A stretch of DNA of 64,000 bases from Saprospiraceae bacterium. GTDB taxonomy: Bacteria; Bacteroidota; Bacteroidia; Chitinophagales; Saprospiraceae. The stretch is from the NCBI GenBank assembly GCA_029263015.1, contig JAJCYI010000184.1:1266-65265 (forward strand). The letters run 5' to 3'. Below are positions 3,091 to 63,380 of the stretch, in pieces. Positions within the stretch are counted from its first letter, which is position 1. Every line of letters begins with the position of its first letter. The position numbers and the translations under genes were made by a program. Below the pieces are notes generated by a model that saw only the letters and a program-made list of their open reading frames with translations, had not been told where the DNA came from and ran no database searches.

Positions 3091-3113
3091 GGGACAAAAG
3101 TAGAGAGAATCCA

Positions 3114-3144
3114 GGTATCGGACACCTCAAAGGTGTCCGATACC
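3114..3144. repeat. REP-A hairpin GGTATCGGACACCT-CAA-AGGTGTCCGATACC
   Basis: Perfect 14-bp stem with a 3-nt loop, immediately 3' of the RayT gene. Confidence 0.9.
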
Positions 3145-3153
3145 TAAACGCAC

Positions 3154-3786
3154 TTAATGCTCGAAATTATCCTTGAACTCCTGATGTGCTTTCACGAATG
3201 ATTCCAAATTGGCGTAGGTCCTCAGCACGGGCAACGTTGAAAGGTCCTTCAATTTTTTTTCGTTGATGAAATATAGATAGGAACTTTGTGGCCAATCTTC
3301 AAACGAAGCACAAAACCCATGGTGGATGGGATTGTGATGAATATACTCAATGAAAAACTTGAACCGGGAGAGGTCACCTGCCAATGTACGCTTGAATTTG
3401 GCCTTAAAAAGGCTTCCCCGCCGTTCCTCTTGCTTGTTGATGGCATTGGAAAAACTGGTAAAGAACCGCTTGAACTGGCTTTCGTAAAAGGTGTTTGGTG
3501 CAATTTTACCAGCCAGAAATGCAATGGCTTTTTTGGTATTTTCCTTTTCAACGAGCGCCATGATTTCGTGGGTTAAATCCTTTGCCTTACTCAGCATGTG
3601 GAAATGATTTGGCATTAAGCAAAAAGCGTAATTGGTGAAATAGGGAGAAATGTACTTGTTCCATTGTTGCCAAAAGAAATCGTAATTGCGAGGTTGGATG
3701 AAGAGGTTCTCGTCGCCGACAGCTTGGTTGTAAATGTGGTAACAGTGGTTAGGTTTGAGCGTTGCCCAGAAGTTAGTTTTCGCCAT
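3154..3786 (-). CDS. REP-associated tyrosine transposase (RayT, IS200/IS605-like Y1 HUH protein)
   Basis: HUH motif in LMPNHFHML and the catalytic-Tyr region FFIEYIHHNPIHHGF. The track ORF extends to 3831, but that extension runs through a REP hairpin, so ATG at 3784-3786 (MAKTNFW...) is preferred. Confidence 0.8.
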   Translation of the reverse strand: MAKTNFWATLKPNHCYHIYNQAVGDENLFIQPRNYDFFWQQWNKYISPYFTNYAFCLMPNHFHMLSKAKDLTHEIMALVEKENTKKAIAFLAGKIAPNTFYESQFKRFFTSFSNAINKQEERRGSLFKAKFKRTLAGDLSRFKFFIEYIHHNPIHHGFCASFEDWPQSSYLYFINEKKLKDLSTLPVLRTYANLESFVKAHQEFKDNFEH

Positions 3787-3801
3787 CGTGTTTGGTTTTA
3801 A

Positions 3802-3832
3802 AGTGTCGGACACCTCTGAGGTGTCCGACACT
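3802..3832. repeat. REP-A variant hairpin AGTGTCGGACACCT-CTG-AGGTGTCCGACACT
   Basis: Perfect 14-bp stem with a 3-nt loop, directly 5' of the RayT start. Confidence 0.9.
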
Positions 3833-3876
3833 TGGGTTTCGAAGATGGCCTAAGATAATAAAAAGTTGAGATTTTA

Positions 3877-3907
3877 GGTATCGGACACCTTCAAGGTGTC
3901 CGATACC
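3877..3907. repeat. REP-A hairpin GGTATCGGACACCT-TCA-AGGTGTCCGATACC
   Basis: Perfect 14-bp stem with a 3-nt loop. Stem is identical to the copy at 3114. Confidence 0.9.
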
Positions 3908-3915
3908 TTTGGCAA

Positions 3916-6837: not shown

Positions 6838-7401
6838 TTAGAGGCCGAAGATGTCTGTTACAGGAATGGTCAAGTCAGGAATACTTGATACTTCAATTTG
6901 GTCACCAGGAAAATAGAGCCGTTTTGTGAGATACCCTTTTAGAGACGGATCGGTAAAAACGAATATTTTAGAATTGTTTAAATCTACAACCCAAGATTCG
7001 GCAATGCCGGCTTTGGCATAAAGGGGCATTTTTAATTCCTGATCTTTTTCTAGGGTTGTATCTGAAACTTCGATAATGAGCGGTATATCAGTTGGAGTAG
7101 GTTTTTTATTGTCGTAAAAATTCTTTTTATAATTCAAAACAGCAATGTCAGGTTCAGGTTCAGAATAGTCATTGATACACACAGGGTTTTGGATACTGAG
7201 GATGTAATCGTCTGATAGCATTTTCTTGAAAATCCAAGTAAAACGATTAACTGTTGCGAGGTGTTTAATTCCGATGGGGCTCATGGTAATGATATTTCCA
7301 CTGATCAATTCTACTTTTTCATCTTCGGCAAGTACACCAGCCTTCACCATTCGGTGATAATCTTCTCTAGTGAATAGCTTTTGATCTATGTGCAGGGTCA
7401 T
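6838..7401 (-). CDS. Uma2 family endonuclease (DUF820)
   Basis: Motifs KVELISGNIITMSP, EPEPDIAV, LIIEVSD and AKAGIAESWVVD. The ATG at 7399-7401 is preferred over the TTG-extended track ORF. Confidence 0.85.
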   Translation of the reverse strand: MTLHIDQKLFTREDYHRMVKAGVLAEDEKVELISGNIITMSPIGIKHLATVNRFTWIFKKMLSDDYILSIQNPVCINDYSEPEPDIAVLNYKKNFYDNKKPTPTDIPLIIEVSDTTLEKDQELKMPLYAKAGIAESWVVDLNNSKIFVFTDPSLKGYLTKRLYFPGDQIEVSSIPDLTIPVTDIFGL

Positions 7402-7455
7402 GCAAATTGTTTTATCAAAGATACATGAATTAAGAATGTAGAACAACGCAACGGA

Positions 7456-10178: not shown

Positions 10179-10263
10179 GATTTAAGATTACATGATTTAT
10201 GGTTTTTGATTTAAGATTTGGTGCTCCCAGAATCAAAAACCTAAAATCATGTAGTCTTAAATC
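10179..10263. repeat. HP-F hairpin repeat, copy 1 (33-bp imperfect inverted arms)
   Basis: GATTTAAGATTACATGATTTATGGTTTTTGATT ... AATCAAAAACCTAAAATCATGTAGTCTTAAATC with 3 mismatches. Shares the 18-mer GATTTAAGATTACATGAT with the copy at 52121-52188. Confidence 0.75.
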
Positions 10264-10276
10264 TCAAGTTTGGACT

Positions 10277-10411
10277 CATACTACTGGACATTAGACGATA
10301 GATTTTTAGACATTAGACTATTTCAAACGTATAAATTTATAATAACCAATGACCTATGGATTTTACAGCGTCTAATGTCTATCGTCTAATTGTCTAATGT
10401 CCGGTAGTATG
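10277..10411. mobile_element. MITE (135 bp) with the termini of the IS4-family element at 42756
   Basis: Ends are CATACTACTGGACAT... and ...ATGTCCGGTAGTATG. Flanked by GTTTGGACT / GTTTGGATT, an 8/9-matching 9-bp target duplication. No ORF. Confidence 0.8.
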
Positions 10412-15625: not shown

Positions 15626-17632
15626 TTAATTTTCAATTCTCAGCTTAACCCCCATCCTAAAATACCGCCCCGGCATGGCTCGCCGCTCAATGACTCGGTA
15701 TTTGGTGTTCCAGAGGTTTTCTATTTTGAAAAATAGGCGGGCGTTCCAATCGCCTTTTTGCCAGTCATTTTCAATCCGCAAAGCTCCGACCTGATAGTTG
15801 GGCATGACGCCAACATTTTGGGTGTTCACTGATCCGGTAAAATGATGTTGGTAGCTCATTGAGAATGTATTCAATTTTAATTGAAAATTTCCAAATGCCT
15901 GATGTTCAGGCGTGTATATCAGTTGCTCCCCTCTGTCAAAACTTGGATTTTCGATTGCTTCCTGATAGGTTGACTTGATGAAATCGTACCCGCCTTTGAA
16001 TCTTATTGCCGTTTTTTTGAAATGAAATTTCAGTTCCAATCGCTGCTCGATGCCCCTGCTCCAGACTGCCGTTATATTGCTCGGTGAATAAAAGGACTCC
16101 CCCTCACGGATGCTCCATTGGATCCAATTTTCGATGTTGCGGTTGAATGCGGTGATGGAGTAAGTGAGTTTATTTGATTGACAGACTTTCAATCCAAGCT
16201 CCTCGCTCCACCCTTTTTCAGGCTTTAGGTTTTTATTGCCACCTGGATTCCAATAACGGTCGTTCAGCGAGGGTAGGCGGAAATTACGGGTCAGTTTGCC
16301 CTCTAGGATAAGCCAGTCGGACAATGCACCTTGAATGCCAAGGCCAGGTATGAAAGGTGACAGGTTGCCGTCAACCAATTCTTGGCGGGTGTTCAGTTGG
16401 GCTTCCCAATTACCAAATTCTTGGCGGTACAGTGCAAAAACCGCCGTGCGGTTTTCTTGGCGTGGCTGTCCATAGCTTTTAGAATCCGATTCGATCCAAG
16501 TGTTGCTGAAACCGATCTGGAGTTTTTGTTTTTCGGTGAAATGCCATTGTTGCTGCACTTCGCCCATGGCTTTCCAAAAGTCATTTTCCGCCAGTAGGTT
16601 TATCAATGGGTCGAGGTATTCCTGTCTTTCCCTGAACAGGCCGGCCCTTACTGACAGGAACCCTTTTTTACCTGCACGTTTCCAATTCAAAACAGTCCTG
16701 AAAAAACCGTCTTTTTGCTCTGCCTCGCTGTGATTTTGCACCGTGGTGGGAGGTATTTCCCGGTTGGTCTTTTGCAGCCAGGTATGGATGGAAAATTGTT
16801 CGTTGGATTTTGGGTTCCAGTACAGATCATGTAGCAGGCCGTTCTGCTGTATCGCTGCGTTTTCTTGTTTTCTATCTGGTAAAACAGGGCTAACGGGATA
16901 AGAGAAATCATTCTCGGCTTGTTGGTGAAAATACCGCAGGTTCTGTTGCCATTTGCCTTTCCCGAATTGCAGTTTCACCTGCTGGTGCCACCAACCAAAA
17001 CTGCCTATTTCACTTTGAGAGGATATGGAAAAGCCTTCTCTGTCAACTGGTTTGTTGTTCAAAAAAACCGTTCCGCCGATAGCACCGCTGCCCCATGGGG
17101 CGCTGTTACCACCAAAAGCAACACTCATTTCGTCGACAAAACCAACGGGCATGAGGGAAAAATCGAGTTGCCCCAGCATAGGGTTTTCGACTGGTAAGCC
17201 ATTCCAGATTACTTGGGTATGCCCGGCACTGCCGCCTCGGATCGAGGTGGTGGCCGAACTGCCAAGGCCATAACTTTTCACGAATACGCCACTTTCGGTT
17301 GCCAGTAGTTCACCGAGGTGATTGGTGTTGTGGTTTTGCAGATCGGCAGGTTGCCAGGATACTCGTCTTTCTCCAATGGTTTGTTCGCGAATGGGGGAGG
17401 CAGTTATTTCGATGGTCTGGAGCTGGCGAGTGGAGTCTATTGATTGGTGATTGCTGGTTGATGATTGTTGGGTGTGGAGCAATAAGGGCCAAGCCATTGC
17501 TATTGCGAAGCAAAAGGTGGTTGTTGAAAAAATATATTTTCCGAAGGAAAGCAAAATTCTGCTTAAATGTTTGCGAAGCAAAAAAGAAAAAGACAGGCAG
17601 AAACGCAGGTAAGGAACAGCCAATGCCGACAA
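15626..17632 (-). CDS. TonB-dependent receptor, BtuB-like (cobalamin riboswitch controlled); start codon uncertain
   Basis: 668-aa ORF with plug (IEITASP...GGSAGHTQVIWNGLPV) and barrel, ending ...RYFRMGVKLRIEN. The track start is a TTG. A TTG near 17581 would give a cleaner signal peptide. Confidence 0.85.
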   Translation of the reverse strand: MSALAVPYLRFCLSFSFLLRKHLSRILLSFGKYIFSTTTFCFAIAMAWPLLLHTQQSSTSNHQSIDSTRQLQTIEITASPIREQTIGERRVSWQPADLQNHNTNHLGELLATESGVFVKSYGLGSSATTSIRGGSAGHTQVIWNGLPVENPMLGQLDFSLMPVGFVDEMSVAFGGNSAPWGSGAIGGTVFLNNKPVDREGFSISSQSEIGSFGWWHQQVKLQFGKGKWQQNLRYFHQQAENDFSYPVSPVLPDRKQENAAIQQNGLLHDLYWNPKSNEQFSIHTWLQKTNREIPPTTVQNHSEAEQKDGFFRTVLNWKRAGKKGFLSVRAGLFRERQEYLDPLINLLAENDFWKAMGEVQQQWHFTEKQKLQIGFSNTWIESDSKSYGQPRQENRTAVFALYRQEFGNWEAQLNTRQELVDGNLSPFIPGLGIQGALSDWLILEGKLTRNFRLPSLNDRYWNPGGNKNLKPEKGWSEELGLKVCQSNKLTYSITAFNRNIENWIQWSIREGESFYSPSNITAVWSRGIEQRLELKFHFKKTAIRFKGGYDFIKSTYQEAIENPSFDRGEQLIYTPEHQAFGNFQLKLNTFSMSYQHHFTGSVNTQNVGVMPNYQVGALRIENDWQKGDWNARLFFKIENLWNTKYRVIERRAMPGRYFRMGVKLRIEN

Positions 17633-17699: not shown

Positions 17700-17975
17700 C
17701 TCTGTGAATGATAAAATTGGCAGGTCTTCTGGCTCACTCCATTTTTTGACGCCTTCCCCGGTTCAGTTGGCAGTATGCAGTAAGCAGACTGGACTTTCCC
17801 AAGTGGCATTATATCAAAAAATATCAATGAATCACGACCAAGAACTAAGAACTAAAAACCAAGAACTAATCACCAGTCACGAATCACCAAAGAAGCTTAC
17901 AGCAGCGGGGACTGCCCCGGATTTTCACCGGGTTCCCTATTAAGGCTGGCAACGGTTTGCCTACCACCAATTTTG
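17700..17975 (-). promoter_or_regulatory. Cobalamin (B12) riboswitch
   Basis: The minus strand reads AATAGGGAACCCGGTGAAAATCCGGGGCAGTCCCCGCTGCTGTAAGC ... GCCACTTGGGAAAG ... CCGGGGAAGGCG ... B12 box GAGCCAGAAGACCTGCC (17719-17734). It lies directly 5' of the receptor gene. Confidence 0.85.
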
Positions 17976-18000
17976 CGGGGCGAAGATAAAGAAGAATAAT

Positions 18001-22471: not shown

Positions 22472-22638
22472 TAAGTAACAAAGCCTAATTAATCGGGTAT
22501 TTTGAGAATACCTTTTTCTGCTACCTGCCTGCCTACAGGTTTTCCTCGAAAAAATAAGTCCGAAACTTGGCTATGCACTAATTTTTTCAAGAAAACTATC
22601 GAAAAAATCTTACCCTCAAAATTTACCTTTGTTACTTA
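22472..22638. repeat. Foldback element FB-D (167 bp)
   Basis: Termini are TAAGTAACAAAG / CTTTGTTACTTA. The core ...CTTGGCTATGCACTAATTTTTT...CTATCGAAAAAATC is collinear with FB-C. Confidence 0.7.
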
Positions 22639-23485: not shown

Positions 23486-23892
23486 GCTAAATGTTATCAA
23501 TAATCAAATCACTCAAAATCCTGACCTCCGTTTTTTCAATAGCATGTTCAACCCCTTTAAAAACAATTAATTTTCCGCTCATTAATTTTCCCGCAGCTTC
23601 TTTTGCTTCTTTTATCAGCTTTTTCAGGATGATTTTTTGCAAATTTCAAAGCAGCATATCCACCCATGCTTTATCCAAAAATATGGGGACTGCTAATTTT
23701 GTTTTCGGAAATGAAATCGGCAATGTTTTCTGCAAATAAATCTATTGAGAAATCATTCTTGGAAGGTCGACCTCCATGTCCTTCAAAATTAAAATTGTGT
23801 ACCTCGAATTTATTGGAAAACCTATTTTTAAGTTCACTAAATTGTTCTTTGCTGCCCAATGCTCCATGTAATAAAATAATGTCCCCTTTCAT
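23486..23892 (-). pseudogene. Alpha/beta hydrolase pseudogene (nonsense codon in the nucleophile elbow, internal loss, frame change)
   Basis: The ORF reads MKGDIILLHGALGS...SSPHIFG then TAA, followed in frame by SMGGYAALKFAKNHPEK. This is G-[stop]-S-M-G-G where GYSMGG is expected. The C-terminal piece ...LIVFKGVEHAIEKTEV... is in another frame, and the total is too short for the fold. Confidence 0.7.
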
Positions 23893-23893
23893 A

Positions 23894-23942
23894 TTTTTAC
23901 TTTTTACTTTTTACTTTTTACTTTTTACTTTTTACTTTTTAC
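23894..23942. repeat. (TTTTTAC)x7 perfect heptamer array
   Basis: Read directly. Starts 1 nt beyond the pseudogene ATG. Confidence 0.95.
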
Positions 23943-23972
23943 TTTTCTGCCTGCCTGCCGGCAGGTTACTTT

Positions 23973-25848: not shown

Positions 25849-25968
25849 CATACTACTGGACATTAGACTGTAGACAATTTAGAACGTATAACTTTCTAAA
25901 AATCAACCACCTATGAACCTGCCGTCGTCTAATATCTATCGTCTAAATGTCTAATGTCCAGTAGCTTG
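25849..25968. mobile_element. MITE (120 bp), second copy, inserted at the modA stop codon
   Basis: Ends are CATACTACTGGACAT... and ...ATGTCCAGTAGCTTG. Perfect 9-bp duplication ATGAAAAAC at 25840-25848 and 25969-25977. Confidence 0.85.
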
Positions 25969-26027
25969 ATGAAAAACACAATATCATTCACAAAACACTG
26001 ATGATGATTTAATTATAAAAGAATTTA

Positions 26028-26189
26028 AGGGAGTTGGAAACAAATAACCTACCCGTTATGGCGAAGCTATTTTTTCTTGTAAAGGTGTTTGAAAAATTAA
26101 GCATAGCTGGGTTACGGTTCATTCTTAAAGCATCTTTAGAAGGGAAAAGAGCGAGTCAGAATGGGTAGGTTATTTGTTTCCAACTCCCT
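26028..26189. repeat. Foldback element FB-B (162 bp)
   Basis: 27-bp perfect terminal inverted arms AGGGAGTTGGAAACAAATAACCTACCC. Core is AAGCATAGCTGGGTTACGG. Ends 16 nt before the ykgJ-like ATG. Confidence 0.85.
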
Positions 26190-26204
26190 AACTCATAACT
26201 CAAA

Positions 26205-34130: not shown

Positions 34131-35363
34131 ATGAAAGTATTCAAATTAGCAGCCCTTTTTATCCTCCTTTTTGCCTATCAGCACGGCAATGCCCAGTTGG
34201 GCTGCACCGATCCACAGGCCTCCAATTACGACTCTCAGGCTGCTGAAAATGATGGTTCATGCGTTTATGCGACCACCACCTACTTTCCTCCGATTGTGAC
34301 GGAATTGGCGGCTAATTTGGCTGAATGCTCGGGGTTGGCTTTTTTTGACAACCGTTTATGGACGCACCTTGATGGCGGCAATCCAGATCAATTGCATGAG
34401 CTGGATACCCTGTTGGGCATAATCAACGAAACGGTCACCATCAGCAATGCAGACAACCAGGATTGGGAGGACCTGGCCGAAGATGCAGACCATATATATA
34501 TAGGTGATTTTGGGAACAACTTTGGCAACCGCACTGATCTCCGCATTTATAAGATAAAAAAAACAGACCTGATTGCTGGCACGTCTTCGCCAGAGCTTAT
34601 TGAGTTTTCTTTCAGCGATCAGACTGACTTTACATCCCTGCAAAACGCACATGATTTTGATTGCGAAGCATTTTTTTATTGGCAGGATTCCCTCCACCTT
34701 TTTTCTAAAAACTGGGTGGATTTCAAAACCCGTCATTATGTACTGCCTGCCACCCCAGGTGTCCATGTGGCAACACTCCGGGATAGTTTGAACGCGCAGG
34801 GGCAGATTACGGCTGCCGATATTTCGGAAGAAGGTGTTGTTGTTCTGTTGGGGTACAATACTGCGACTATCGAAACTTTCCTTTGGTTGTTATTTGATTT
34901 TCAAGGAAACGATTTTTTCACTGGAAACAAAAGGAGGGTTTCCTTGGGTAGTGCGGTATTAAATGGGCAGGTCGAAGGGTTGGCATTCCGTGATGCCACA
35001 AGTGGTTACATCTGCTCGGAAGACTTAACGTCGTTTGTATCGGGTAAACTTTTAACCTTTGATATTGCCCAGTGGCTGGGCGACCCCGTACCGATTTTCT
35101 CAACATACGATCCGTTTTCAATTGTGATTTCTCCAAACCCTGTTTCAGACAAATTGAATGTTAGTCTGGATATTGGATTTCTGCAAAATGCTCATTTTCA
35201 AATAGTTGGGATGGATGGCAAAACGGTATTGGAAAAGAAAATAGAATCATCTTCATCTCAGCGGCAACTCTCCTTCGATACATCGCAGCTAAATTCTGGG
35301 ATGTATTTTTTGGTATTAGAAAACAAAGGCGAGATGTTGACCAGGGTATTTGTCAAAAAATAA
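34131..35363 (+). CDS. Secreted protein of unknown function with T9SS CTD
   Basis: 410 aa with a signal peptide. C-terminus is ISPNPVSDKLNVSL...SGMYFLVLENKGEMLTRVFVKK. Confidence 0.7.
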   Translation: MKVFKLAALFILLFAYQHGNAQLGCTDPQASNYDSQAAENDGSCVYATTTYFPPIVTELAANLAECSGLAFFDNRLWTHLDGGNPDQLHELDTLLGIINETVTISNADNQDWEDLAEDADHIYIGDFGNNFGNRTDLRIYKIKKTDLIAGTSSPELIEFSFSDQTDFTSLQNAHDFDCEAFFYWQDSLHLFSKNWVDFKTRHYVLPATPGVHVATLRDSLNAQGQITAADISEEGVVVLLGYNTATIETFLWLLFDFQGNDFFTGNKRRVSLGSAVLNGQVEGLAFRDATSGYICSEDLTSFVSGKLLTFDIAQWLGDPVPIFSTYDPFSIVISPNPVSDKLNVSLDIGFLQNAHFQIVGMDGKTVLEKKIESSSSQRQLSFDTSQLNSGMYFLVLENKGEMLTRVFVKK

Positions 35364-35421
35364 GGGTATGTAGCGATGAAAAAGAAACAGTCAAGAATGA
35401 TAATTTATTTTTGAACTGTTC
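35360..35421. repeat. Truncated foldback element (apex plus one arm, related to FB-A)
   Basis: GAAAAAGAAACAGTCAAGAATGATAATTTATTTTTGAACTGTTC matches about 40/44 nt of 60519-60565. Confidence 0.75.
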
Positions 35422-35427
35422 TTAAAA

Positions 35428-36063
35428 TCAATTCATATTTTCCTCCTCTGTAAAAATCTCTTCCAAAGGGATTCCCAATCCTTTGAATACATTGGAAGTC
35501 AAAATATCTTTGTCCGTAAATGTGGGAAGAATGCCAATAAATTTATGGGTGGTTTCATCCAATATATAAACATGTGCCACTCGGTGTTCTGGGTCAACCA
35601 CCCAATATTCCAAAACGCCCGCTTCTTGGTACAGTTCAAACTTATCCTTCATCTCCAGTCTAGAATTGCCTGGCGATAATATTTCAACCACCAAATCGGG
35701 AGCGCCCACGCAGCCCTGTTTGTCGAGTTTGCTTTGGTCGCAGACCACGCATAAATCGGGTTGCACAACCGTATCAATTTTGTTGCCTTTCATTTTGTGT
35801 TTTGGCAAAGGCAAACGCACATCGAACGGGGCGGAAAAAAGGTCGCAATTTTTTTTGGAGAAATAAATACCTATTGATGTATGTAAATAGCTCGATACTC
35901 TCTGGTGCTGCACATTTGGTGCTGCCATAGGAAACAAGCGCCCTTTCAGCAGTTCAACCCTTTCTTTGAAATGCCAGAGGAGGTAGTCTCCGTAATTGTA
36001 ATGCTGTTTGGGATCCAGCTGTTGGAGTGAATTTATCATAATTTCTTTTGTTGAAGACCCCAT
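35428..36063 (-). CDS. Uma2 family endonuclease (start uncertain: 36063 or 36039)
   Basis: RVELLKGRLFPMAAP, VQPDLCVV, PDLVVEILSPGN and EAGVLEYWVVDP. Confidence 0.85.
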   Translation of the reverse strand: MGSSTKEIMINSLQQLDPKQHYNYGDYLLWHFKERVELLKGRLFPMAAPNVQHQRVSSYLHTSIGIYFSKKNCDLFSAPFDVRLPLPKHKMKGNKIDTVVQPDLCVVCDQSKLDKQGCVGAPDLVVEILSPGNSRLEMKDKFELYQEAGVLEYWVVDPEHRVAHVYILDETTHKFIGILPTFTDKDILTSNVFKGLGIPLEEIFTEEENMN

Positions 36064-36539
36064 GAGGATAATGTCTTGTTTTGAAATCCATTTCAAAGAT
36101 AGGCAAATGATTGTTTATGTATGGGCAATATTATAGGAAACAGCATTGGAAACAGAGGAAAGACAATGAAGCCAGCTAAAGGGCAATCTACATCTGATCT
36201 ATCCGAGGTGAATCCTTTGGGGGAAGGAGGCCAAGGTGATTATGGGGAAAACTCCCTTCCCAATAGGGCAACACCAGCCCAAAAGGGTCGTTAACCATTG
36301 CGATAAACAAGCTTTGACTCGAGCCTCAAAAACTCAAAACTCAAAATTCCATCATAAGCACCTCCCTTTCTTTTGCCGCACACTGAACTAAACGTGCGAA
36401 AACACCTAGCCACCAGCCTATTTCTAATTAGATTTGCCGTTTTAAAAAATACCAAGAGCCGGATCAATTCATTGACCAAAATAGAATCCATAAAACATGG
36501 ACATGCGGCGATTGGGTATGAAATTTCAATATAGATAAA

Positions 36540-42755: not shown

Positions 42756-44008
42756 CATACTACTGGACATGAAGAAGGAAATGGAAGAAATTCATTAAGA
42801 TTGTGATGACCAAACCATAATCAAAATGAGTCTTCCACTTCCACACGAAATTACATCCTTTTTTGATGAACAGCCTGCCCATGTTGTCAGGAATTTATTG
42901 GTCACGGCCGAAGGGATATATTCTGCAAAGAGTACCAACCTCAATGTTGTAAAGGATGAACTGGGCAACATTTTAGGGGATCAGGGAACGACCAAGCCCG
43001 AATCGAACTATAAACGGCTGCTCCGGTTTTTTCAACTGGGCGACGAAGAAAAACAAAGCCTGACCAGGTCGCTTTTGTGTGTCGGGGTCTGTGTCCTGGG
43101 CCTGAAAGGCCGCAGGCCGAGGTACCTGACCCTGGACGGTACGAGCTGGGAACTGGGCACGAAAAAGGTCCACCTCCCCACTTTGGGGGTCGTGGTCAAC
43201 GGGGTGAGCATCCCGATATGTTGGGAGGACCTGGACAAAAAAGGGACCAGCAACTGCACCGAGCGGAAGGCCCTGTTCGATAAAGCCTGCCAGTGGTACG
43301 ACCTGAAGGGGATGGTATTGTTGGCAGACCGGGAATACATAGGCGAAGAATGGTTCAGGTGCCTCACAGGCAAGGGGCTGCAGTTTGTGATCAGGCTCAA
43401 AAAGAAAACCTATAAAGAATATGTGGACGGGCAGAGGACTGGTGTGGACAAAGCCTTCAAACACCAAAAGTGGCGGTATATCGGGATGGAACGGGGGGCA
43501 AAAAAACAGATCTACAAAAACAGCGGGGTCGCCAAACAGATCCGGATACTCGATGAGAAATATACTTTTGTAGTGTTCAAAAACCCCAAAAAGGAAGCAG
43601 AAGAACCCTTGATCTATTTTATATCAAGCTTAAGGAAAAAGCAGAAGATCGTAGGGGCCTATCCGATAAGGTGGAAGATCGAATGTTGCTTCAGGCACCT
43701 CAAGTCAAATGGGTTTAACCTGGAAGACCTGAATTTCAGGGCCAGGGAAAAAATAAAGCTGATGATGGCAATAGTGTCTTTTTTATATGTGCTCTGTATT
43801 CAACAAGGGGTCTTGGCCTATTCGGAATTCAAAAAAAGCGATTTCAAAAAATACCGGGACGGGACAGCGACCTTGGCGGTCTCGATTTTCCGGAAAGGAA
43901 AATCAATAATGGCTGGCAAGTTCCACAACCTGAAATCTTTCATCAAATTTTTGATGTCGATTTTAAAAGGAAAAAACCTCCCATTTTGGGTTCATGTCCA
44001 GTAGTATG
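42756..44008 (+). mobile_element. IS4-family insertion sequence (1253 bp) with 18-bp perfect terminal inverted repeats CATACTACTGGACATGAA
   Basis: TIRs at 42756-42773 and 43991-44008. Single transposase ORF. No convincing target duplication. Confidence 0.85.
42826..44004 (+). CDS. IS4 family DDE transposase
   Basis: 392 aa with LDGTSWELG, LLADREYIG and YPIRWKIECCFRHLK, matching the Y(2)R(3)E(6)K signature. Confidence 0.9.
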   Translation: MSLPLPHEITSFFDEQPAHVVRNLLVTAEGIYSAKSTNLNVVKDELGNILGDQGTTKPESNYKRLLRFFQLGDEEKQSLTRSLLCVGVCVLGLKGRRPRYLTLDGTSWELGTKKVHLPTLGVVVNGVSIPICWEDLDKKGTSNCTERKALFDKACQWYDLKGMVLLADREYIGEEWFRCLTGKGLQFVIRLKKKTYKEYVDGQRTGVDKAFKHQKWRYIGMERGAKKQIYKNSGVAKQIRILDEKYTFVVFKNPKKEAEEPLIYFISSLRKKQKIVGAYPIRWKIECCFRHLKSNGFNLEDLNFRAREKIKLMMAIVSFLYVLCIQQGVLAYSEFKKSDFKKYRDGTATLAVSIFRKGKSIMAGKFHNLKSFIKFLMSILKGKNLPFWVHVQ

Positions 44009-44041
44009 CGTTTTGATATTGAAATGTAAGTCGTATGGAAT

Positions 44042-46008: not shown

Positions 46009-46126
46009 TGATGGTAATTAGTAATTTGTGACTTGTGATCAGTGTATTTCAGTAAGAGGCCAAAAGTAGTTGTTCTTATGGAAAATGGAAATGAACCGCT
46101 CTCGAATTTCACCCAAGAAGCACCCC

Positions 46127-46159
46127 AGAGGTGACACCTTTCTAAAAGGTGTCACCTCT
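46127..46159. repeat. REP-B hairpin AGAGGTGACACCTTT-CTA-AAAGGTGTCACCTCT
   Basis: Perfect 15-bp stem with a 3-nt loop, 3' of the second RayT gene. Confidence 0.9.
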
Positions 46160-46181: not shown

Positions 46182-46859
46182 TTATTCAATAATCAAATCC
46201 TGAATGTCCATCCAATTTTCTGCTTGTTGATGAAACTGTTCAAATGCCAATTTTCCTCCAAACCAGTATAGAACAGTTTGTCTTTCCAATTTCGTTGTTC
46301 CATCAGACAAGATTGTTTGATATGAAGACCAAGGATACATTCTATATGCTGTCTGCAATTTATGTTTCTTGGGATTGGCGTGGATGTAAAAAATCAGCCA
46401 GCGCAAGTGGTTTTCACTTTCTACCGATACGCGTTGGAAAGGACGGTGGAATAAGTTGCCTTTTCTTCCCCATTGTTTGTTTGCCGCCATGGCATAACTA
46501 GTGAAAAACCGTTGGAATTGGCTTGCTAACACTTTGTGCCATGTTCTTAAATCGGGGGATTGGTCAAGCTCTCGTTTTTGCAGAATCGAGCGTTTTCCCA
46601 TAGGCAGTTGAAGCAAGTGTTTTTCAAGTTTTGCAGCATTCTGGACTTTGATTAGAAAGTGAAAGTGAGTGTCCAAAAGGCAATAGGAATAAACAGCCAA
46701 AAAGGGCAAGAGATATTCTTGAAATTTCATCAAAAAATATTGTCTGTTCTCATCGCTTCGATACAATGCCTCTTTGTTATTTGTTCGATTGTAAATGTGG
46801 TAGTATCCGTCAGGTACAAGTTGACATTCGTAGTTGCCCGGATGAGGTATTTTTGTCAT
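46182..46859 (-). CDS. REP-associated tyrosine transposase (RayT), second divergent copy
   Basis: HUH motif in LLDTHFHFL and the Tyr region LIFYIHANPKKH. ATG at 46857-46859 is preferred because the upstream extension crosses a REP-B hairpin. Confidence 0.8.
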   Translation of the reverse strand: MTKIPHPGNYECQLVPDGYYHIYNRTNNKEALYRSDENRQYFLMKFQEYLLPFLAVYSYCLLDTHFHFLIKVQNAAKLEKHLLQLPMGKRSILQKRELDQSPDLRTWHKVLASQFQRFFTSYAMAANKQWGRKGNLFHRPFQRVSVESENHLRWLIFYIHANPKKHKLQTAYRMYPWSSYQTILSDGTTKLERQTVLYWFGGKLAFEQFHQQAENWMDIQDLIIE

Positions 46860-46881
46860 GATTTGGTTTTTTTGGTAATGA

Positions 46882-46914
46882 AGAGGTGACACCTTTTTAA
46901 AAGGTGTCACCTCT
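46882..46914. repeat. REP-B hairpin AGAGGTGACACCTTT-TTA-AAAGGTGTCACCTCT
   Basis: Perfect 15-bp stem with a 3-nt loop, 5' of the second RayT gene. Confidence 0.9.
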
Positions 46915-49241: not shown

Positions 49242-51431
49242 TTGAAAAAGAAAACCCTTTTCATCACGCCGCCATTTACGCAGTTGAACACGCCCTATCC
49301 GGCCACTGCTTACCTCAAGGGCTTCCTCAATACAAAAGGCTTCCCTTCCCACCAAGTGGATTTGGGCATTGAAGTCATTCTGGGGCTGTTTTCTTCAAAA
49401 GGATTACAATCGTTGTTCGCCGACCTTGAAAACAACGAGACCGAACTTTCCGACAATGCCGAACGCATCATCGCACTACAAGCCGACTACATTGCAACCA
49501 TCGGTCCCGTCATTCTTTTTTTACAAAACAAAAACGCCACACTGGCACACCACATTTGCGACCGCAGTTATTTGCCAGAGGCATCCCGTTTTGCTGCTTT
49601 GGAAGACCTTGATTGGGCATTTGGCACAATGGGCCTCCACGACAAGGCACGCCACCTCGCCACCCTCTACCTCGAAGACCTCGGCGACCTTGTCACAGAG
49701 GCCGTTGACCCACACTTTGGTTTTAGCCGTTATGCTGAGCGGCTGGGCAGTACGGCTTCCCATTTTGATGAAATAAATGAAAATTTGCAATTGCCCAATA
49801 CGCTCGTCTTCAATATTTTATGTGATATTTTAGAACAAAAAATCCAAAGATGGCAACCGGATGTGGTTTGTCTATCGGTGCCATTTCCCGGCAATTTGTT
49901 CAGTGCTTTTAAGTGTGGGCAATATTTGAAAAAAAACCATGCAAATGTCGCCATCGCAATGGGAGGGGGTTATGTAAATACCGAACTCCGCCGCCTTGCC
50001 GACGAGCGGATTTTCGACTACATAGACTATGTCTGTCTCGACGATGGAGAAGCGCCCTTGCTCCACCTTCTTGAATACCTTTCGGACGAGCGACCTGATA
50101 GGCTGCTCAAGCGTACCTTTACGCGCACGGCGGGTGTGGTCAGCTATCACAATACCAGCCCCAAACTCGACATTCCCCAGCAAGAAATAGGCACACCCGA
50201 CTACGCCGACCTCCTCCTGCACGACTACCTCTCCGTCATTGAAATAGTGAACCCCATGCACCGACTTTGGAGCGATGGTCGCTGGAACAAGCTCACCCTC
50301 GCTCACGGCTGCTACTGGGGCAAGTGCAGTTTTTGTGACGTGAGCCTCGACTATATTCAGCGGTACGAACCCGTGACGGCTGCTTTGCTCTGTGACCGCA
50401 TTGAGGCCATCATCGCACAGACCGGACAGCATGGTTTTCACTTCGTAGATGAGGCTGCCCCACCTGCTCTGATGCGTGATCTGGCACTCGAAATCCTGCG
50501 CCGCCGCCTTACCGTTACTTGGTGGACAAACATCCGTTTTGAAAAAAGTTTTACCGCTGATCTCTGCACCTTGCTCAAACTGTCAGGTTGCATAGCGGTG
50601 TCTGGTGGATTGGAAGTAGCCTCCGATCGGCTGCTCAAACAGATGAAAAAAGGAGTAACCGTTTCACAGGTGGCGCAGGTGGCGCACCACTTCACCGAGG
50701 CTGGCATTATGGTACATGCATATCTCATGTACGGCTTTCCCACACAGACGGCTCAGGAGACCATTGATTCCCTGGAGATGGTGCGGCAGCTCTTTGAAAA
50801 TGGCGTGGTACAGTCTGGTTTTTGGCATCGCTTTGCAATGACAGCGCACAGCCCTGTTGGCCTTGACCCCGCAGCTTTTGGTGCGGTGGAAACAGGTCCT
50901 AAATTCGGAGGCTTCGCTGACAACGACCGGCACCACGATGACCCTAAAGGTGCTGATCACGACCTATTTGCCGAAGGGTTGCGCAAGTCGCTGTTCAATT
51001 TTATGCACGGTGTTTGTCTTGATTTTCCGCTGGCGCAATGGTTCAATTTCAAAACGACAAAGCCCTCCGTTCCAAAAGGTTTTATCAAAAAAAGCATCGA
51101 TCATGCTCCCGAAAAATCCCTCCTTCCGAATGCCCTTGTAATATGGACTGGCCCGCTGCCAGTTGCCGCCCTCGTAGAGGATGAATCAGGGCAAGAATCT
51201 GCTGAACTGGTATTTCACCATAAACAACATGAGTGGACGCTGGAAACCACTTCCGGTCTCGGGCAATGGCTCGTGGACCTGCTGCCGATGCTACAAATCG
51301 GCGTCCGTGAGGTGCTGACAATCAAGTCATTAAAAAAGGATTTTGAGGAGGCAGGCATGGGTGGATTTGAAGTCTTTTTGGAATCGGAAGAATGGAGGGG
51401 ATTGCGGGAGAATGGGCTATTGGTGCTGTGA
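49242..51431 (+). CDS. B12-binding-domain radical SAM protein with a long C-terminal extension; probable TTG start
   Basis: N-terminus is KKKTLFITPPFTQLNTPYPATAYLKGFL (B12-binding-like Rossmann start). Cluster motif is GCYWGKCSFCD. The track ORF starts at an arbitrary upstream TTG at 49116. Confidence 0.75.
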   Translation: MKKKTLFITPPFTQLNTPYPATAYLKGFLNTKGFPSHQVDLGIEVILGLFSSKGLQSLFADLENNETELSDNAERIIALQADYIATIGPVILFLQNKNATLAHHICDRSYLPEASRFAALEDLDWAFGTMGLHDKARHLATLYLEDLGDLVTEAVDPHFGFSRYAERLGSTASHFDEINENLQLPNTLVFNILCDILEQKIQRWQPDVVCLSVPFPGNLFSAFKCGQYLKKNHANVAIAMGGGYVNTELRRLADERIFDYIDYVCLDDGEAPLLHLLEYLSDERPDRLLKRTFTRTAGVVSYHNTSPKLDIPQQEIGTPDYADLLLHDYLSVIEIVNPMHRLWSDGRWNKLTLAHGCYWGKCSFCDVSLDYIQRYEPVTAALLCDRIEAIIAQTGQHGFHFVDEAAPPALMRDLALEILRRRLTVTWWTNIRFEKSFTADLCTLLKLSGCIAVSGGLEVASDRLLKQMKKGVTVSQVAQVAHHFTEAGIMVHAYLMYGFPTQTAQETIDSLEMVRQLFENGVVQSGFWHRFAMTAHSPVGLDPAAFGAVETGPKFGGFADNDRHHDDPKGADHDLFAEGLRKSLFNFMHGVCLDFPLAQWFNFKTTKPSVPKGFIKKSIDHAPEKSLLPNALVIWTGPLPVAALVEDESGQESAELVFHHKQHEWTLETTSGLGQWLVDLLPMLQIGVREVLTIKSLKKDFEEAGMGGFEVFLESEEWRGLRENGLLVL

Positions 51432-51534
51432 TGGTTATAGAAGCCAAGTTGAGATTCTGATAGCACCTGCAAGTGATTTGCAGGTTGTTGGCATAACGAT
51501 ATTTCCTTACCTTTGTACAGTAAAAAATCCAGCC

Positions 51535-52047
51535 ATGATGAAAGAAGATGTTTTGACCGAAGATATGACTCAACCTTTTGAAGAGGAGGACTACGTAACA
51601 GAACGCCATAAACCAATGCCTAATAAAATCCACGGAACCCTGCAAGCGCAAATTATTTTTTTATTAAAATCAATTTACGGAAATAAATATAATCCTCCTG
51701 GAGAGGTAACTCTCAAGACCGAGCCTCAAACTTCTACTCCTGACATTTGTATTTATACGAAATCAAAATTGGATATTAGAACAGTCACTGCCAAAGAAGA
51801 GGAAGCCCCCATCACCACCATCGAAATCCAGTCTCCCAGCCAATCCATTGACGAACTGCAAAAAAAGGCGTGGGAACTCTACTTCCCTTTTGGTGTAAAG
51901 TCTGCCTGGATAGTCATCCCAGCACTCAAGGCCGTACAGGTACTCACCAACGACGATCAGCAGTTTTTCTTCAACTCAGGCAAACTGAGCGACCCGATAA
52001 CGGGTATCGAACTTTCCATCGAAAAGATTTTTGAAGATTTGTTGTGA
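51535..52047 (+). CDS. Uma2 family endonuclease (third copy)
   Basis: 170 aa from ATG 51535 with TPDICIY, TTIEIQSPSQ and FGVKSAWIVIP. Confidence 0.75.
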   Translation: MMKEDVLTEDMTQPFEEEDYVTERHKPMPNKIHGTLQAQIIFLLKSIYGNKYNPPGEVTLKTEPQTSTPDICIYTKSKLDIRTVTAKEEEAPITTIEIQSPSQSIDELQKKAWELYFPFGVKSAWIVIPALKAVQVLTNDDQQFFFNSGKLSDPITGIELSIEKIFEDLL

Positions 52048-52120: not shown

Positions 52121-52188
52121 AAATCAAACATCATGTAATCTGGAATCGTACATCAGAGTTGGATTTAAGATTACATGATGTTTGATTG
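52121..52188. repeat. HP-F hairpin repeat, copy 2
   Basis: AATCAAACATCATGTAATCT ... AGATTACATGATGTTTGATT (20-bp perfect arms). Confidence 0.8.
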
Positions 52189-60387: not shown

Positions 60388-60567
60388 GGGGAACAGTGCA
60401 TAAATAAATTGACGTTCTTGGGTGAATTATTTTTTTCTCTAACAAGGCGAAAAACGCAGGCATAGCAGGGCTATGACGAGCCTGCCTGCCGGTAGGCAGG
60501 TATTTTCAACAAAGTTAGAGAGGAAAAGAAGCAGTCAAGAATGATAATTTATTTATGCACTGTTCCC
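60388..60567. repeat. Foldback element FB-A (180 bp)
   Basis: 22-bp perfect terminal arms GGGAACAGTGCATAAATAAATT. Inner arms are imperfect. The asymmetric core is GCAGGCATAGCAGGGCTATGACGAGCCTGCCTGCCGGTAGGCAGG. Confidence 0.85.
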
Positions 60568-60601
60568 GATAGGGTGGGAATTTAATTCCCACCCTATCGG
60601 G
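60565..60601. repeat. Perfect hairpin CCCGATAGGGTGGGAAT-TTA-ATTCCCACCCTATCGGG (REP-like; probable terminator of convergent genes)
   Basis: 17-bp stem with a 3-nt loop, 14 nt from the stop of the 795-aa gene. Confidence 0.85.
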
Positions 60602-60614
60602 AGGCGTTTCATTC

Positions 60615-63002: not shown

Positions 63003-63173
63003 AATAGTAGTAGTATAATTGTTGCATGGTATAACGGTTTTTTGGTGTAATGGTTTTATAGTCTAGTATCGGAAGGTGAATCACTCAAGATGTTTGTGTG
63101 TTTTAACCTGAATGTCTATTTGCAGCTTTACTGATAACCGTCTATTTTGAACTTTCTTTTTCCCTTTCCATTT

Positions 63174-63334
63174 AAGTAATCGAGCCTAAATACTTTCCGT
63201 TTTTATCGGCTGCTTTTTCCATATAGCTGCGTTAATAAAAAGTTCACGTAGCCAGGCTATGCTCACTTTTTTTGCCTTGCTATACGAAAAAATCAACTCG
63301 CTAAAATTCGGAAATTATTTAATCTCGACTACTT
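63174..63334. repeat. Foldback element FB-C (161 bp)
   Basis: Arms are AAGTAATCGAGCCTAAATACTTTCCG / CGGAAATTATTTAATCTCGACTACTT. Core is CGTAGCCAGGCTATGCTCACTTTTTTT. Collinear with FB-D and with the reverse complement of FB-A. Confidence 0.8.
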
Positions 63335-63380
63335 ACTTGCTTTTATAAACACTATTTTTGCGGCCTTTTTTAAGAATATA

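What the first reader, a model, noticed from the sequence alone, without database searches (positions are those of the whole stretch)
60388..60567. Diverged family of 160-180 bp foldback elements with an asymmetric conserved core
There are four full copies: FB-A 60388-60567, FB-B 26028-26189, FB-C 63174-63334 and FB-D 22472-22638. A half copy lies at 35360-35421. All are collinear; C and D are in the opposite orientation to A and B. Shared blocks include GCATAGC[ACT][AGT]GG at the apex, CTAT(A)CGAAAAAATC, and GAAAAGA[AG][GC][CG]AGTCA(A)GAATG. Between copies the terminal arms differ strongly (GGGAACAGTGCATAAATAAATT versus AGGGAGTTGGAAACAAATAACCTACCC versus AAGTAATCGAGCCTAAATAC). Within a copy the two arms stay perfectly complementary over 22-27 bp in A and B. 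That pattern looks like compensatory change. It fits either a structured RNA or DNA under selection, or old foldback MITEs homogenised by intra-element conversion. All copies are intergenic.
Basis: seen in the sequence. Interest (0 to 1): 0.65.

Follow-up and report, generated by a model that had tools for sequence, protein, structure and literature searches.

The report
Widespread Bacteroidota foldback MITE family
The four 160-180 bp hairpin repeats are copies of a small mobile DNA element with no gene of its own (a MITE) that inserts at TTA/TAA sites and is common in Bacteroidota; its whole hairpin, on one strand only, has been kept by compensatory mutations.

Summary
There are four full copies and one 3' half copy, all intergenic and all strong rod-like folds. 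No further copies lie in the window.

These are not private to this genome. A strict core pattern found more than 113 loci in Bacteroidota genomes, in Saprospiraceae, Flavobacteriaceae, Lacihabitans and Chitinophagales.

The copies are mobile DNA:
- Flanking trinucleotides are direct TTA/TTA or TAA/TAA repeats, in 33 of 38 metagenome copies and about 38 versus 5 in the genome set.
- One filled/empty pair shows a 3-bp TTA duplication.
- Copies break assemblies, and FB-B has about 20 times the depth of its flanks.
- Orientation relative to neighbouring genes is random.

So this is a MITE family with a TWA target, as made by IS5/ISL2-type or PIF-Harbinger-type DDE transposases. No parent transposase was found.

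The compensatory pattern is also real:
- 88% of cells pair, against 62% when shuffled.
- 33 of 44 pairs show double changes, including pairs deep inside the element.
- Mismatches are mostly G·T on one strand (153 versus 35 A·C).
- That strand folds more stably in 66-68 of 68 copies.

This points to a single-stranded phase, but whether it is ssDNA or RNA is unresolved. I found no Rfam family and no paper describing it. It is a new member of a known kind, of moderate interest.

The parts
60389..60567 (+). FB-A, a full copy of 179 bp. Arms are 60389-60420 and 60536-60567. It has no TWA flanks (5' CCG, 3' GAT), so it is probably an old copy. Its last 4 nt overlap a 19-bp perfect palindrome at 60564-60602.
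60481..60500 (+). A small GC-rich hairpin, CCTGCCTGCC/GGTAGGCAGG, nested inside FB-A. It is absent from other family members at this position.
26029..26188 (+). FB-B, a full copy of 160 bp with 27-bp perfect arms. Its subfamily is a repeat of about 20 times the flank depth in the source metagenome.
26026..26028 (+). Left copy of the TAA target-site duplication of FB-B.
   Evidence: In one search the contigs' loose ends start at 26024/26026.
26189..26191 (+). Right copy of the TAA target-site duplication of FB-B.
   Evidence: In one search the loose ends lie behind 26191/26193.
63173..63335 (-). FB-C, a full copy of the AGTA-tip subfamily. The unit is TA|AGTA...TACT|TA, so the element proper is 63175-63333.
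22472..22638 (-). FB-D, a full copy of the AGTA-tip subfamily. The unit is TA|AGTAAC...GTTACT|TA. It has an internal deletion in the 5' arm and carries a nested CCTGCCTGCCTACAGG insert at 22524-22539.
35372..35421 (+). A 5'-truncated copy holding the 3' core and 3' arm of an FB-A-type element. It is followed by TTA at 35422-35424.

Best explanation
The repeats are copies of a non-autonomous foldback transposon (a MITE) that is widespread in Bacteroidota.

Shown:
- The element proper is about 160 bp.
- It inserts at T-W-A (TNA/NTA) sites and duplicates 3 bp. In the AGTA-tip subfamily that includes C and D, the flank is a TA.
- It sits in intergenic DNA in either orientation.
- It exists as many lineages. 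Their 25-40-bp terminal arms differ, but their about 100-bp core is shared: ATTTTTTC..AAAAA..GCATAGC-NNN-GCTACGG..ATTTTTT..GGAAAAAGAAC.

Inferred:
- The element is cut and pasted in trans by a DDE-type transposase that makes 3-nt staggered cuts. IS5-family ISL2/IS1031/IS427-type or PIF-Harbinger-type enzymes are the known ones with this target.
- The arms are that enzyme's recognition sites, because the same arms also bound several other foldback MITEs.

Shown but not mechanistically explained:
- The whole rod-like hairpin of the strand read as in copies A and B is under purifying selection. Pairs covary along its whole length.
- G·T is tolerated while A·C is not.

My reading is that the lineages which keep spreading pass through, or act as, a folded single strand of that polarity. 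Most likely this is ssDNA at the transposition step, in which the paired arms offer one double-stranded end. Less likely it is an RNA.
For: Spread:
- 113 or more loci in Bacteroidota genomes, many at contig ends.
- Depth of 234-258 over FB-B against 10.7 in its flanks.

Target-site duplications:
- Five near-identical copies in one MAG are flanked by TTA/TTA, TAA/TAA, TTA/TTA, TAA/TAA and TTA/TAA.
- In the genome set, direct flanks outnumber inverted ones by about 38 to 5 outside the AGTA subfamily, including one TCA/TCA.
- In the independent metagenome set, 33 of 38 are direct.
- L101 (empty) and L045 (filled) show ...GGTCA TTA GTAC... against ...GGTCA TTA [element] TTA GTAC....

Orientation to genes: 15 (+,+), 15 (-,-), 16 divergent and 9 convergent. 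Only 2 of 57 lie in ORFs.

Shared arms: the same TIR bounds at least 8 other core types.

Structure:
- 88.0% of cells pair against 62.1% shuffled; the covariation score is 0.62 against 0.18; slid partners score 0.10-0.24; helices 4-6 deep inside the element covary too.
- G·T outnumbers A·C 153 to 35 in paired columns.
- Per arm cluster the count is 65 to 26, p = 5e-5.
- The forward strand is more stable in 66/68 copies with RNA parameters and 68/68 with DNA parameters.
- Core identity is 57-63% against 40-42% for the arms.
Against: - No autonomous element or cognate transposase was found in the window, in 113 genome loci or in 120 metagenome loci.
- The IS5-type assignment rests only on TSD length and target, and on GG/GA tips. 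It draws on established knowledge of IS families, not on a test made here.
- No known DDE pathway needs a strand-specific single-strand hairpin.
- FB-A lacks TWA flanks.
- For the AGTA subfamily, TA...TA cannot be told apart from part of the inverted repeat.
- Sequences in the covariation set share ancestry, so shuffle controls overstate significance.
- 'Private' mismatches show the same G·T bias (25 to 5). A strand-biased mutation process could also produce that.
Confidence: 0.75

Rival explanations
1. An ordinary MITE whose palindromy is maintained neutrally. Intra-element template switching (quasi-palindrome correction) or gene conversion copies one arm onto the other, so the 'compensatory' changes need no selection on a folded strand.
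For: - Young copies have perfect 22-27-bp arms.
- All elements sharing the TIR are whole-length foldbacks, whatever their core.
- This suggests the palindrome comes from how such elements arise.
Against: - Conversion is blind to strand, yet mismatches are G·T on one strand 65 to 26 (p = 5e-5), or 153 to 35 in paired columns. That strand is more stable in 66-68 of 68 copies.
- Asymmetric features persist across classes of Bacteroidota instead of being erased. Examples are the apex A·C, the GTTATGGCG / AGTCAGAATGG internal loop, and GGAAAAAGAAC opposite GTTATTTTTTC.
Confidence: 0.15
2. The constraint acts on RNA. The element is, or carries, a structured about 160-nt RNA made from its own promoter or by read-through. 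Candidate roles are a bidirectional terminator or insulator, an RNase III substrate, or a regulator of its transposase. Mobility is secondary.
For: - Strong covariation and G·U tolerance on one strand.
- The apex hairpin is preceded by an A-run and followed by a T-run, as in an intrinsic terminator.
- ERIC elements are a precedent for RNA-level effects. This is established knowledge, not tested here.
Against: - No Rfam family matches.
- No conserved Bacteroidota -7 box TAnnTTTG at any fixed column.
- Orientation relative to flanking genes is random.
- The commonest site is between divergent genes, where nothing reads in.
- A and C, 3 kb apart, have opposite orientations.
- No RNA data could be found.
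Confidence: 0.1
3. A REPIN-like or IS200/IS605-type element moved as single-stranded DNA by an HUH tyrosine transposase (RAYT or TnpA).
For: - It forms hairpins and is strand-asymmetric.
- Y1_Tnp genes occur in two of the loci.
Against: - Such elements make no target duplication and carry a fixed right-end cleavage site.
- Here the flanking trinucleotide varies (TTA, TAA, TCA, ATA, GTA) and matches on both sides within near-identical copies.
- The RAYT-like gene in L043 is flanked by its own, different REPs, GTTGCAAGTT..AACTTGCAAC.
- The IS200 in L027 is an insertion into a copy.
Confidence: 0.03

Closest known systems
ERIC/IRU (127 bp) and YPAL/RU-2 (about 168 bp) repeats of Enterobacteriaceae and Vibrio
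   Same: - Intergenic, whole-length imperfect palindromes of similar size.
- Multi-copy and conserved across genera.
- MITE-like, with no known transposase.
- The hairpin differs between the two orientations because of G·U pairs.

These properties are recalled from the literature; no sequence comparison was made here.
   Different: - Different phylum, and no sequence relation was tested.
- The 3-bp TWA duplication is documented here with a filled/empty pair.
- Many lineages have different terminal arms around one conserved core.
Correia/NEMIS elements of Neisseria
   Same: - A bacterial MITE of 100-155 bp at TA-containing targets.
- Hundreds of copies and no identified parent.
- A functional centre (an IHF site, promoters, RNase III hairpins). 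This is established knowledge.
   Different: - Correia has conserved 26-bp TIRs and a non-palindromic interior.
- Here the TIRs are the variable part, and the whole length pairs and covaries.
Tourist-type MITEs of PIF/Harbinger, and MITEs of IS5-family ISL2/IS1031/IS427 groups
   Same: - A 3-bp TWA/TNA (or 2-bp TA) target duplication.
- G-rich tips.
- Small size and trans-mobilisation.
- IS5 ISL2/IS1031/IS427-group ISs are abundant in at least one member of Bacteroidota, Amoebophilus (PMC3196728).
   Different: - No IS5-type element with matching TIRs was found.
- In classical members the TIRs, not the interior, are the conserved part.
The other MITE of this same window: foldbacks at 10277-10411 and 25850-25966, with parent IS at 42756-44009
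   Same: Same genome, intergenic foldbacks of similar size.
   Different: - That family has an identifiable parent: a DDE_Tnp_1 transposase with shared 15-18-bp tips CATACTACTGGACAT.
- It has a 9-bp TSD.
- The FB family has neither.
REPINs mobilised by RAYTs
   Same: Hairpin-forming, non-autonomous and intergenic, with a presumed single-strand phase.
   Different: - REPINs have conserved REP ends, no TSD, and flank their RAYT.
- None of these holds here.

Membership tests
Bacterial MITE (non-autonomous class II element) | Small size (under about 500 bp) and no transposase gene | tested here: met
   The elements are 151-186 bp. The only ORF seen, 37 codons in FB-B, is interrupted in sister subfamilies (reading).
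Bacterial MITE (non-autonomous class II element) | Terminal inverted repeats | tested here: met
Bacterial MITE (non-autonomous class II element) | Target-site duplication, with a matching empty site | tested here: met
   Direct TWA flanks number about 38 against 5 and 33 of 38. The filled/empty pair is L045/L101. FB-A itself lacks them.
Bacterial MITE (non-autonomous class II element) | Many dispersed copies at unrelated sites | tested here: met
Bacterial MITE (non-autonomous class II element) | A cognate autonomous IS with the same TIRs | tested here: inconclusive
   None was found in the window or in 233 loci. Whole genomes could not be searched.
IS5-family (ISL2/IS1031/IS427) or PIF-Harbinger derived | A 2-3-bp duplication of a TA/TWA/TNA target | tested here: met
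IS5-family (ISL2/IS1031/IS427) or PIF-Harbinger derived | TIRs matching those of a member that encodes a DDE_Tnp_1 or DDE_Tnp_4 transposase | not tested
   No ISfinder-type library was available. The only DDE_Tnp_1 element in the window has unrelated TIRs.
REPIN / RAYT system | No TSD, conserved REP heads, and a RAYT gene flanked by the repeats | tested here: not met
IS200/IS605-derived PATE | Insertion 3' of a fixed tetra- or pentanucleotide, no duplication, and asymmetric subterminal hairpins | tested here: not met
   The flanking trinucleotide varies and matches on both sides.
Structured ncRNA or cis-regulatory RNA family | Covariation supporting a conserved secondary structure | tested here: met
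   Inverted repeats of a transposon would also satisfy this feature.
Structured ncRNA or cis-regulatory RNA family | Constant genomic context or orientation, own promoter or terminator, and a match to a curated family | tested here: not met
Structured ncRNA or cis-regulatory RNA family | A discrete transcript | not testable with these tools
   Only DNA runs hold the window. The RNA-labelled runs found via the F. branchiophilum copy (coded organism C, 0.00 of the query's words) laid no contig on it.

The most novel reading that the evidence does not exclude
The family, and the other foldback MITEs that share its arms, may be moved by a structure-specific mechanism. In it, one defined strand folds into a hairpin whose paired arms form the single double-stranded 'end' that the enzyme cuts and inserts, with a 3-nt stagger. 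That would be a transposition pathway through a folded single strand that still makes target duplications, carried out by an enzyme not encoded between the repeats. It would explain the whole-length covariation, the strand-specific G·T tolerance, the missing parent IS, and why every element with these arms is a complete foldback.
Probability: 0.15. Interest if true: 0.8.

Novelty: new member of a known kind. Interest (0 to 1): 0.42.

Why it matters
**Practical value**
- The family breaks assemblies of Saprospiraceae and Flavobacteriaceae genomes.
- It can be mistaken for structured RNAs in covariation screens.
- The profile and boundaries given here allow it to be masked or annotated.

**Biological value**
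- It is a natural data set of dozens of lineages and hundreds of copies.
- In it, a bacterial MITE shows selection on its fold, and on one strand of it, rather than only on its terminal repeats.
- The same question has stayed open for ERIC-like elements for decades.
- Because cultured carriers exist, the question becomes testable by mutating stems in a transposition assay.

Tried and rejected
**Known RNA families:** Rfam gave no match at the gathering threshold on the window, or at permissive E-values on A and B. The only hits were chance miRNA/snoRNA ones.

**Leader or riboswitch reading:** B, C and D lie upstream of genes in the same orientation. I rejected this reading because the downstream genes are unrelated and orientation is random over 55 copies.

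**Coding:** a 37-codon ORF spans FB-B and some relatives, but it carries stops in sister subfamilies.

**Promoter:** there is no conserved TAnnTTTG.

**Search for a parent IS:**
- Arm BLAST against all loci.
- ORF clustering of 736 ORFs.
- A search for split halves.
- A brute-force search for inverted repeats, which was too noisy.
- A metagenome scan with the FB-B-type tip.

These yielded only other MITEs with the same arms, an IS110-family insertion into one of them (L140) and an IS200 insertion into an FB copy (L027).

**REPIN/RAYT link:** rejected.

**Other collections:** no copies in plasmids, phages or viral contigs.

**Empty site in the source community:** Logan contigs do not bridge the repeat. 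One read-laying run failed on a filter.

**RNA evidence:** none is available.

**Literature:** no description of this family was found. The Cardinium MITE (PMC9769881) is IS982-derived and unrelated. The 2024 MITE census (PMC11602168) treats Bacteroidota in bulk.

Full report
**1. Observation**

- The inverted-repeat scan ranks the arms of FB-B (33 nt, 94%) and FB-A (32 nt, 91%) among the four longest inverted repeats of the window. It also finds FB-D (28 nt, 75%).
- Each copy folds as one long rod, far below shuffled controls, with z = -12.4, -14.5, -9.2 and -5.6.
- A 22-base pattern of the shared core matches exactly these four places, against 0.00 expected.
- Profile searches with 4 or 46 sequences add only the half copy at 35372-35421.
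- All copies lie between ORFs.
- The window is from a Bacteroidota MAG of a biofilm metagenome. This follows from T9SS sorting domains and SprB and from the sequencing runs.

**2. The family is large and widespread**

The strict pattern was scanned over one genome per species.
- mostly Saprospiraceae MAGs;
- Flavobacteriaceae, namely Aquimarina, Flavobacterium (including F. branchiophilum and F. omnivorum), Maribacter, Winogradskyella and Flavivirga;
- Lacihabitans and Chitinophagales.

Many matches sit at contig ends, as assembly-breaking repeats do. In the source community, the contig word depth over FB-B is 234-258 against 10.7 in the flanks. Contigs diverge exactly at 26024/26026 and 26191/26193. 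No copies were found in plasmid, phage or viral collections.

**3. It is mobile DNA with a target-site duplication**

When copies are anchored on the apex, all arms are collinear: T-W-A, then G, then about 12 variable bases, then an AATAA box. In Flavobacteriaceae the tip is TACCA...TGGTA.
- Five near-identical copies of one MAG are bounded by TTA..TTA (twice), TAA..TAA (twice) and TTA..TAA. The middle base varies between copies but matches within a copy.
- Over the genome set, direct flanks outnumber inverted ones by about 38 to 5 once the AGTA-tip subfamily is set aside. These include one TCA/TCA.
- The GACTTGTTACCC subfamily reads [NTA]GAC...GTCTA[NTA], with ATA, GTA or TTA matching in 9 of 10 (reading).
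- The AGTA subfamily, to which FB-C and FB-D belong, always reads TA|AGTA...TACT|TA (12 of 12). This is either a TA duplication or part of the repeat.
- In an independent metagenome set, 33 of 38 core-bearing elements have direct flanks, 31 of them TWA, against 1 inverted.
- One filled/empty pair was found within a MAG. L101 reads ...GAGTTGGTCA TTA GTACTT.... L045 reads ...GAGTTGGTCA TTA [GTGAAG...CTTCAC] TTA GTACTT....

Orientation relative to the neighbouring genes is random: 15 co-directional forward, 15 reverse, 16 between divergent genes and 9 between convergent genes. Only 2 of 57 lie in ORFs. In the window, B, C and D lie upstream of same-strand genes, so this is coincidence. Those genes are also unrelated.

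**4. What moves it**

A 3-bp duplication of TWA/TNA (or 2 bp of TA) is the signature of staggered cuts. Among known enzymes it is made by IS5-family ISL2/IS1031/IS427-type and PIF/Harbinger-type DDE transposases. That is established knowledge of IS families. Such ISs are abundant in at least one member of Bacteroidota (PMC3196728).

I could not find the enzyme.
- The window's only transposase (42826-44004, DDE_Tnp_1) belongs to an IS with unrelated 18-bp TIRs. That IS is the evident parent of a different foldback family in the window, at 10277-10411 and 25850-25966, with a 9-bp TSD.
- The 233 fetched loci gave no element in which FB-type arms enclose a transposase of their own.
- The two apparent cases are insertions into MITEs: an IS200 in L027, and an IS110-family IS in L140.

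The metagenome scan with the FB-B-type tip was still informative. The same arms, with the same TWA duplications, bound at least eight other internal sequences of 56-390 bp. All of them are whole-length foldbacks. The arms therefore behave as the recognition module, and the FB core as one of several interiors.

**5. The compensatory pattern is real and goes beyond terminal repeats**

The analysis used a 46-sequence alignment covering 27 arm lineages. The consensus is a single rod of 44 pairs, and 33 of them show double changes that keep the pair.
- 88.0% of cells pair, against 62.1% after shuffling partners (0 of 500 shuffles reach it).
- The covariation score is 0.62 against 0.18. Sliding the partners by 1-3 columns gives 0.10-0.24.
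- Helices 55-75 nt from the tips covary as well (columns 58-60/132-134, 63-70/121-128, 75-76/94-95). The need for two identical transposase sites cannot explain the whole pattern.
- The core is more conserved than the arms, at 57-63% against 40-42% mean pairwise identity.

**6. The fold belongs to one strand**
- Aligning each left half to the reverse complement of its right half gives 333 mismatches that are G·T on the A/B-orientation strand. Only 145 are G·T on the other strand.
- In the arms alone, counted once per lineage, the figures are 65 against 26 (p = 5e-5).
- In the paired columns they are 153 G·T against 35 A·C.
- The forward strand folds better in 66 of 68 copies with RNA parameters (-64.8 against -49.6 kcal/mol). 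With DNA parameters it does so in 68 of 68 (-37.3 against -29.7).

Several explanations fail to predict this:
- A cruciform or a duplex-level constraint.
- Strand-blind conversion.
- An in-situ effect. Orientation is random with respect to genes, and A and C, 3 kb apart, are opposite.

The constraint therefore seems to act on the propagating lineage, that is, on a single-stranded form of defined polarity. I cannot tell ssDNA from RNA.
- Against RNA: there is no conserved Bacteroidota -7 box, no Rfam family, and many copies lie between divergent genes.
- No RNA data exist for a carrier.
- A strand-biased mutation process is not excluded, since 'private' mismatches show the same bias (25 against 5).

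**7. Rivals**
- Neutral homogenisation explains the perfect arms of young copies. It does not explain the strand bias or the asymmetric core features kept across classes.
- An RNA function, for example a bidirectional terminator built from A-run, apex hairpin and T-run, remains possible as an added layer.
- HUH/RAYT-type single-strand transposition is contradicted by the variable, matching flanks. The RAYT-like gene in L043 also has its own different REPs.

**8. Comparison and novelty**

In behaviour the family is closest to ERIC/YPAL and Correia elements. These are hairpin-forming bacterial MITEs at TA-type targets with no known transposase. By target it is closest to Tourist/IS5-type MITEs. 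I found no paper describing it, and it is not in Rfam.

It is a new member of a known kind. The unusual points are a conserved core with fast-evolving arms, covariation over the whole length, and strand-specific wobble tolerance. The most novel reading still open is a structure-specific, single-strand transposition route. I give it about 15%.

Noticed in passing
window 42756-44009; also 10277-10411 and 25850-25966: An IS of 1254 bp with perfect 18-bp TIRs CATACTACTGGACATGAA, encoding a 392-aa DDE_Tnp_1 transposase (42826-44004). Two intergenic foldbacks share its tips (CATACTACTGGACATTAGAC...). The one at 10277-10411 is flanked by a 9-bp repeat GTTTGGAYT. This is a classical IS and MITE pair, unrelated to the FB family.
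   Followed up: partly
window 60481-60500, 22524-22539, 23946-23966; L081 about 1134-1160; L033 2113-2140; L097 1946-1972: A tiny GC-rich palindrome, CCTGCCTGC(C/G)..4-8 nt..GGCAGGCAGG, occurs free-standing in intergenic DNA and nested at different positions inside four FB copies. It looks like a second, REP-sized insertion-prone element.
   Followed up: partly
L001, L031 and L041 (genome loci), after TTTTT(G)TAAC in the 3' half of the core: A homologous module of about 62 nt is present at the same site in FB copies of two different arm lineages and MAGs, but absent from their sister copies (L019, L035, L083). It has a 15-bp hairpin plus GTGAACCGCTTGCGGATGGGAT. It is either an optional domain or another nested mini-element.
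   Followed up: no
L027 4330-4890; L140 about 510-1830: An IS200-type element (Y1_Tnp, E = 6.9e-43) sits inside an FB core. An IS110-family element (DEDD_Tnp_IS110 plus Transposase_20) sits inside a related MITE with the same arms. Both IS families are known to favour single-stranded or palindromic targets.
   Followed up: partly
window 17702-17986 (-): A cobalamin riboswitch (RF00174, 78.3 bits) lies upstream of a TonB-dependent receptor gene (15626-17632, - strand).
   Followed up: no
window 10179-10263 and 52122-52187: A third foldback family, GATTTAAGATTACATGAT...ATCATGTA(A/G)TCTTAAATC, with 26-33-nt arms and 14-19 nt between them.
   Followed up: no
window 23891-23947: A tandem heptamer array (CTTTTTA)n of about 8 units, directly abutting a CCTGCCTGCC hairpin.
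   Followed up: no
window 3112-3141, 3800-3833 and 3876-3909; 46124-46158 and 46882-46914: Near-identical palindromes bracket two small genes with no Pfam match (3154-3831 and 46182-46910). One gene has AAGGTGTCCGA(C/T)AC-type hairpins on both sides; the other has AGAGGTGACACCTTTT/AAAAGGTGTCACCTCT.
   Followed up: no
window 6838-7446, 35428-36096, 51343-52047: Three paralogous Uma2-family (PF05685) putative endonuclease genes lie within 64 kb. One of them directly abuts the truncated FB copy.
   Followed up: no
L043 278-321, 959-1009, 1156-1199: A RAYT-like Y1 transposase gene (340-966, - strand) is flanked by its own REP hairpins, GTTGCAAGTT..AACTTGCAAC and GTGGCAAGTG..CACTTGCCAC. This is a separate REP/RAYT system in a Saprospiraceae MAG.
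   Followed up: partly
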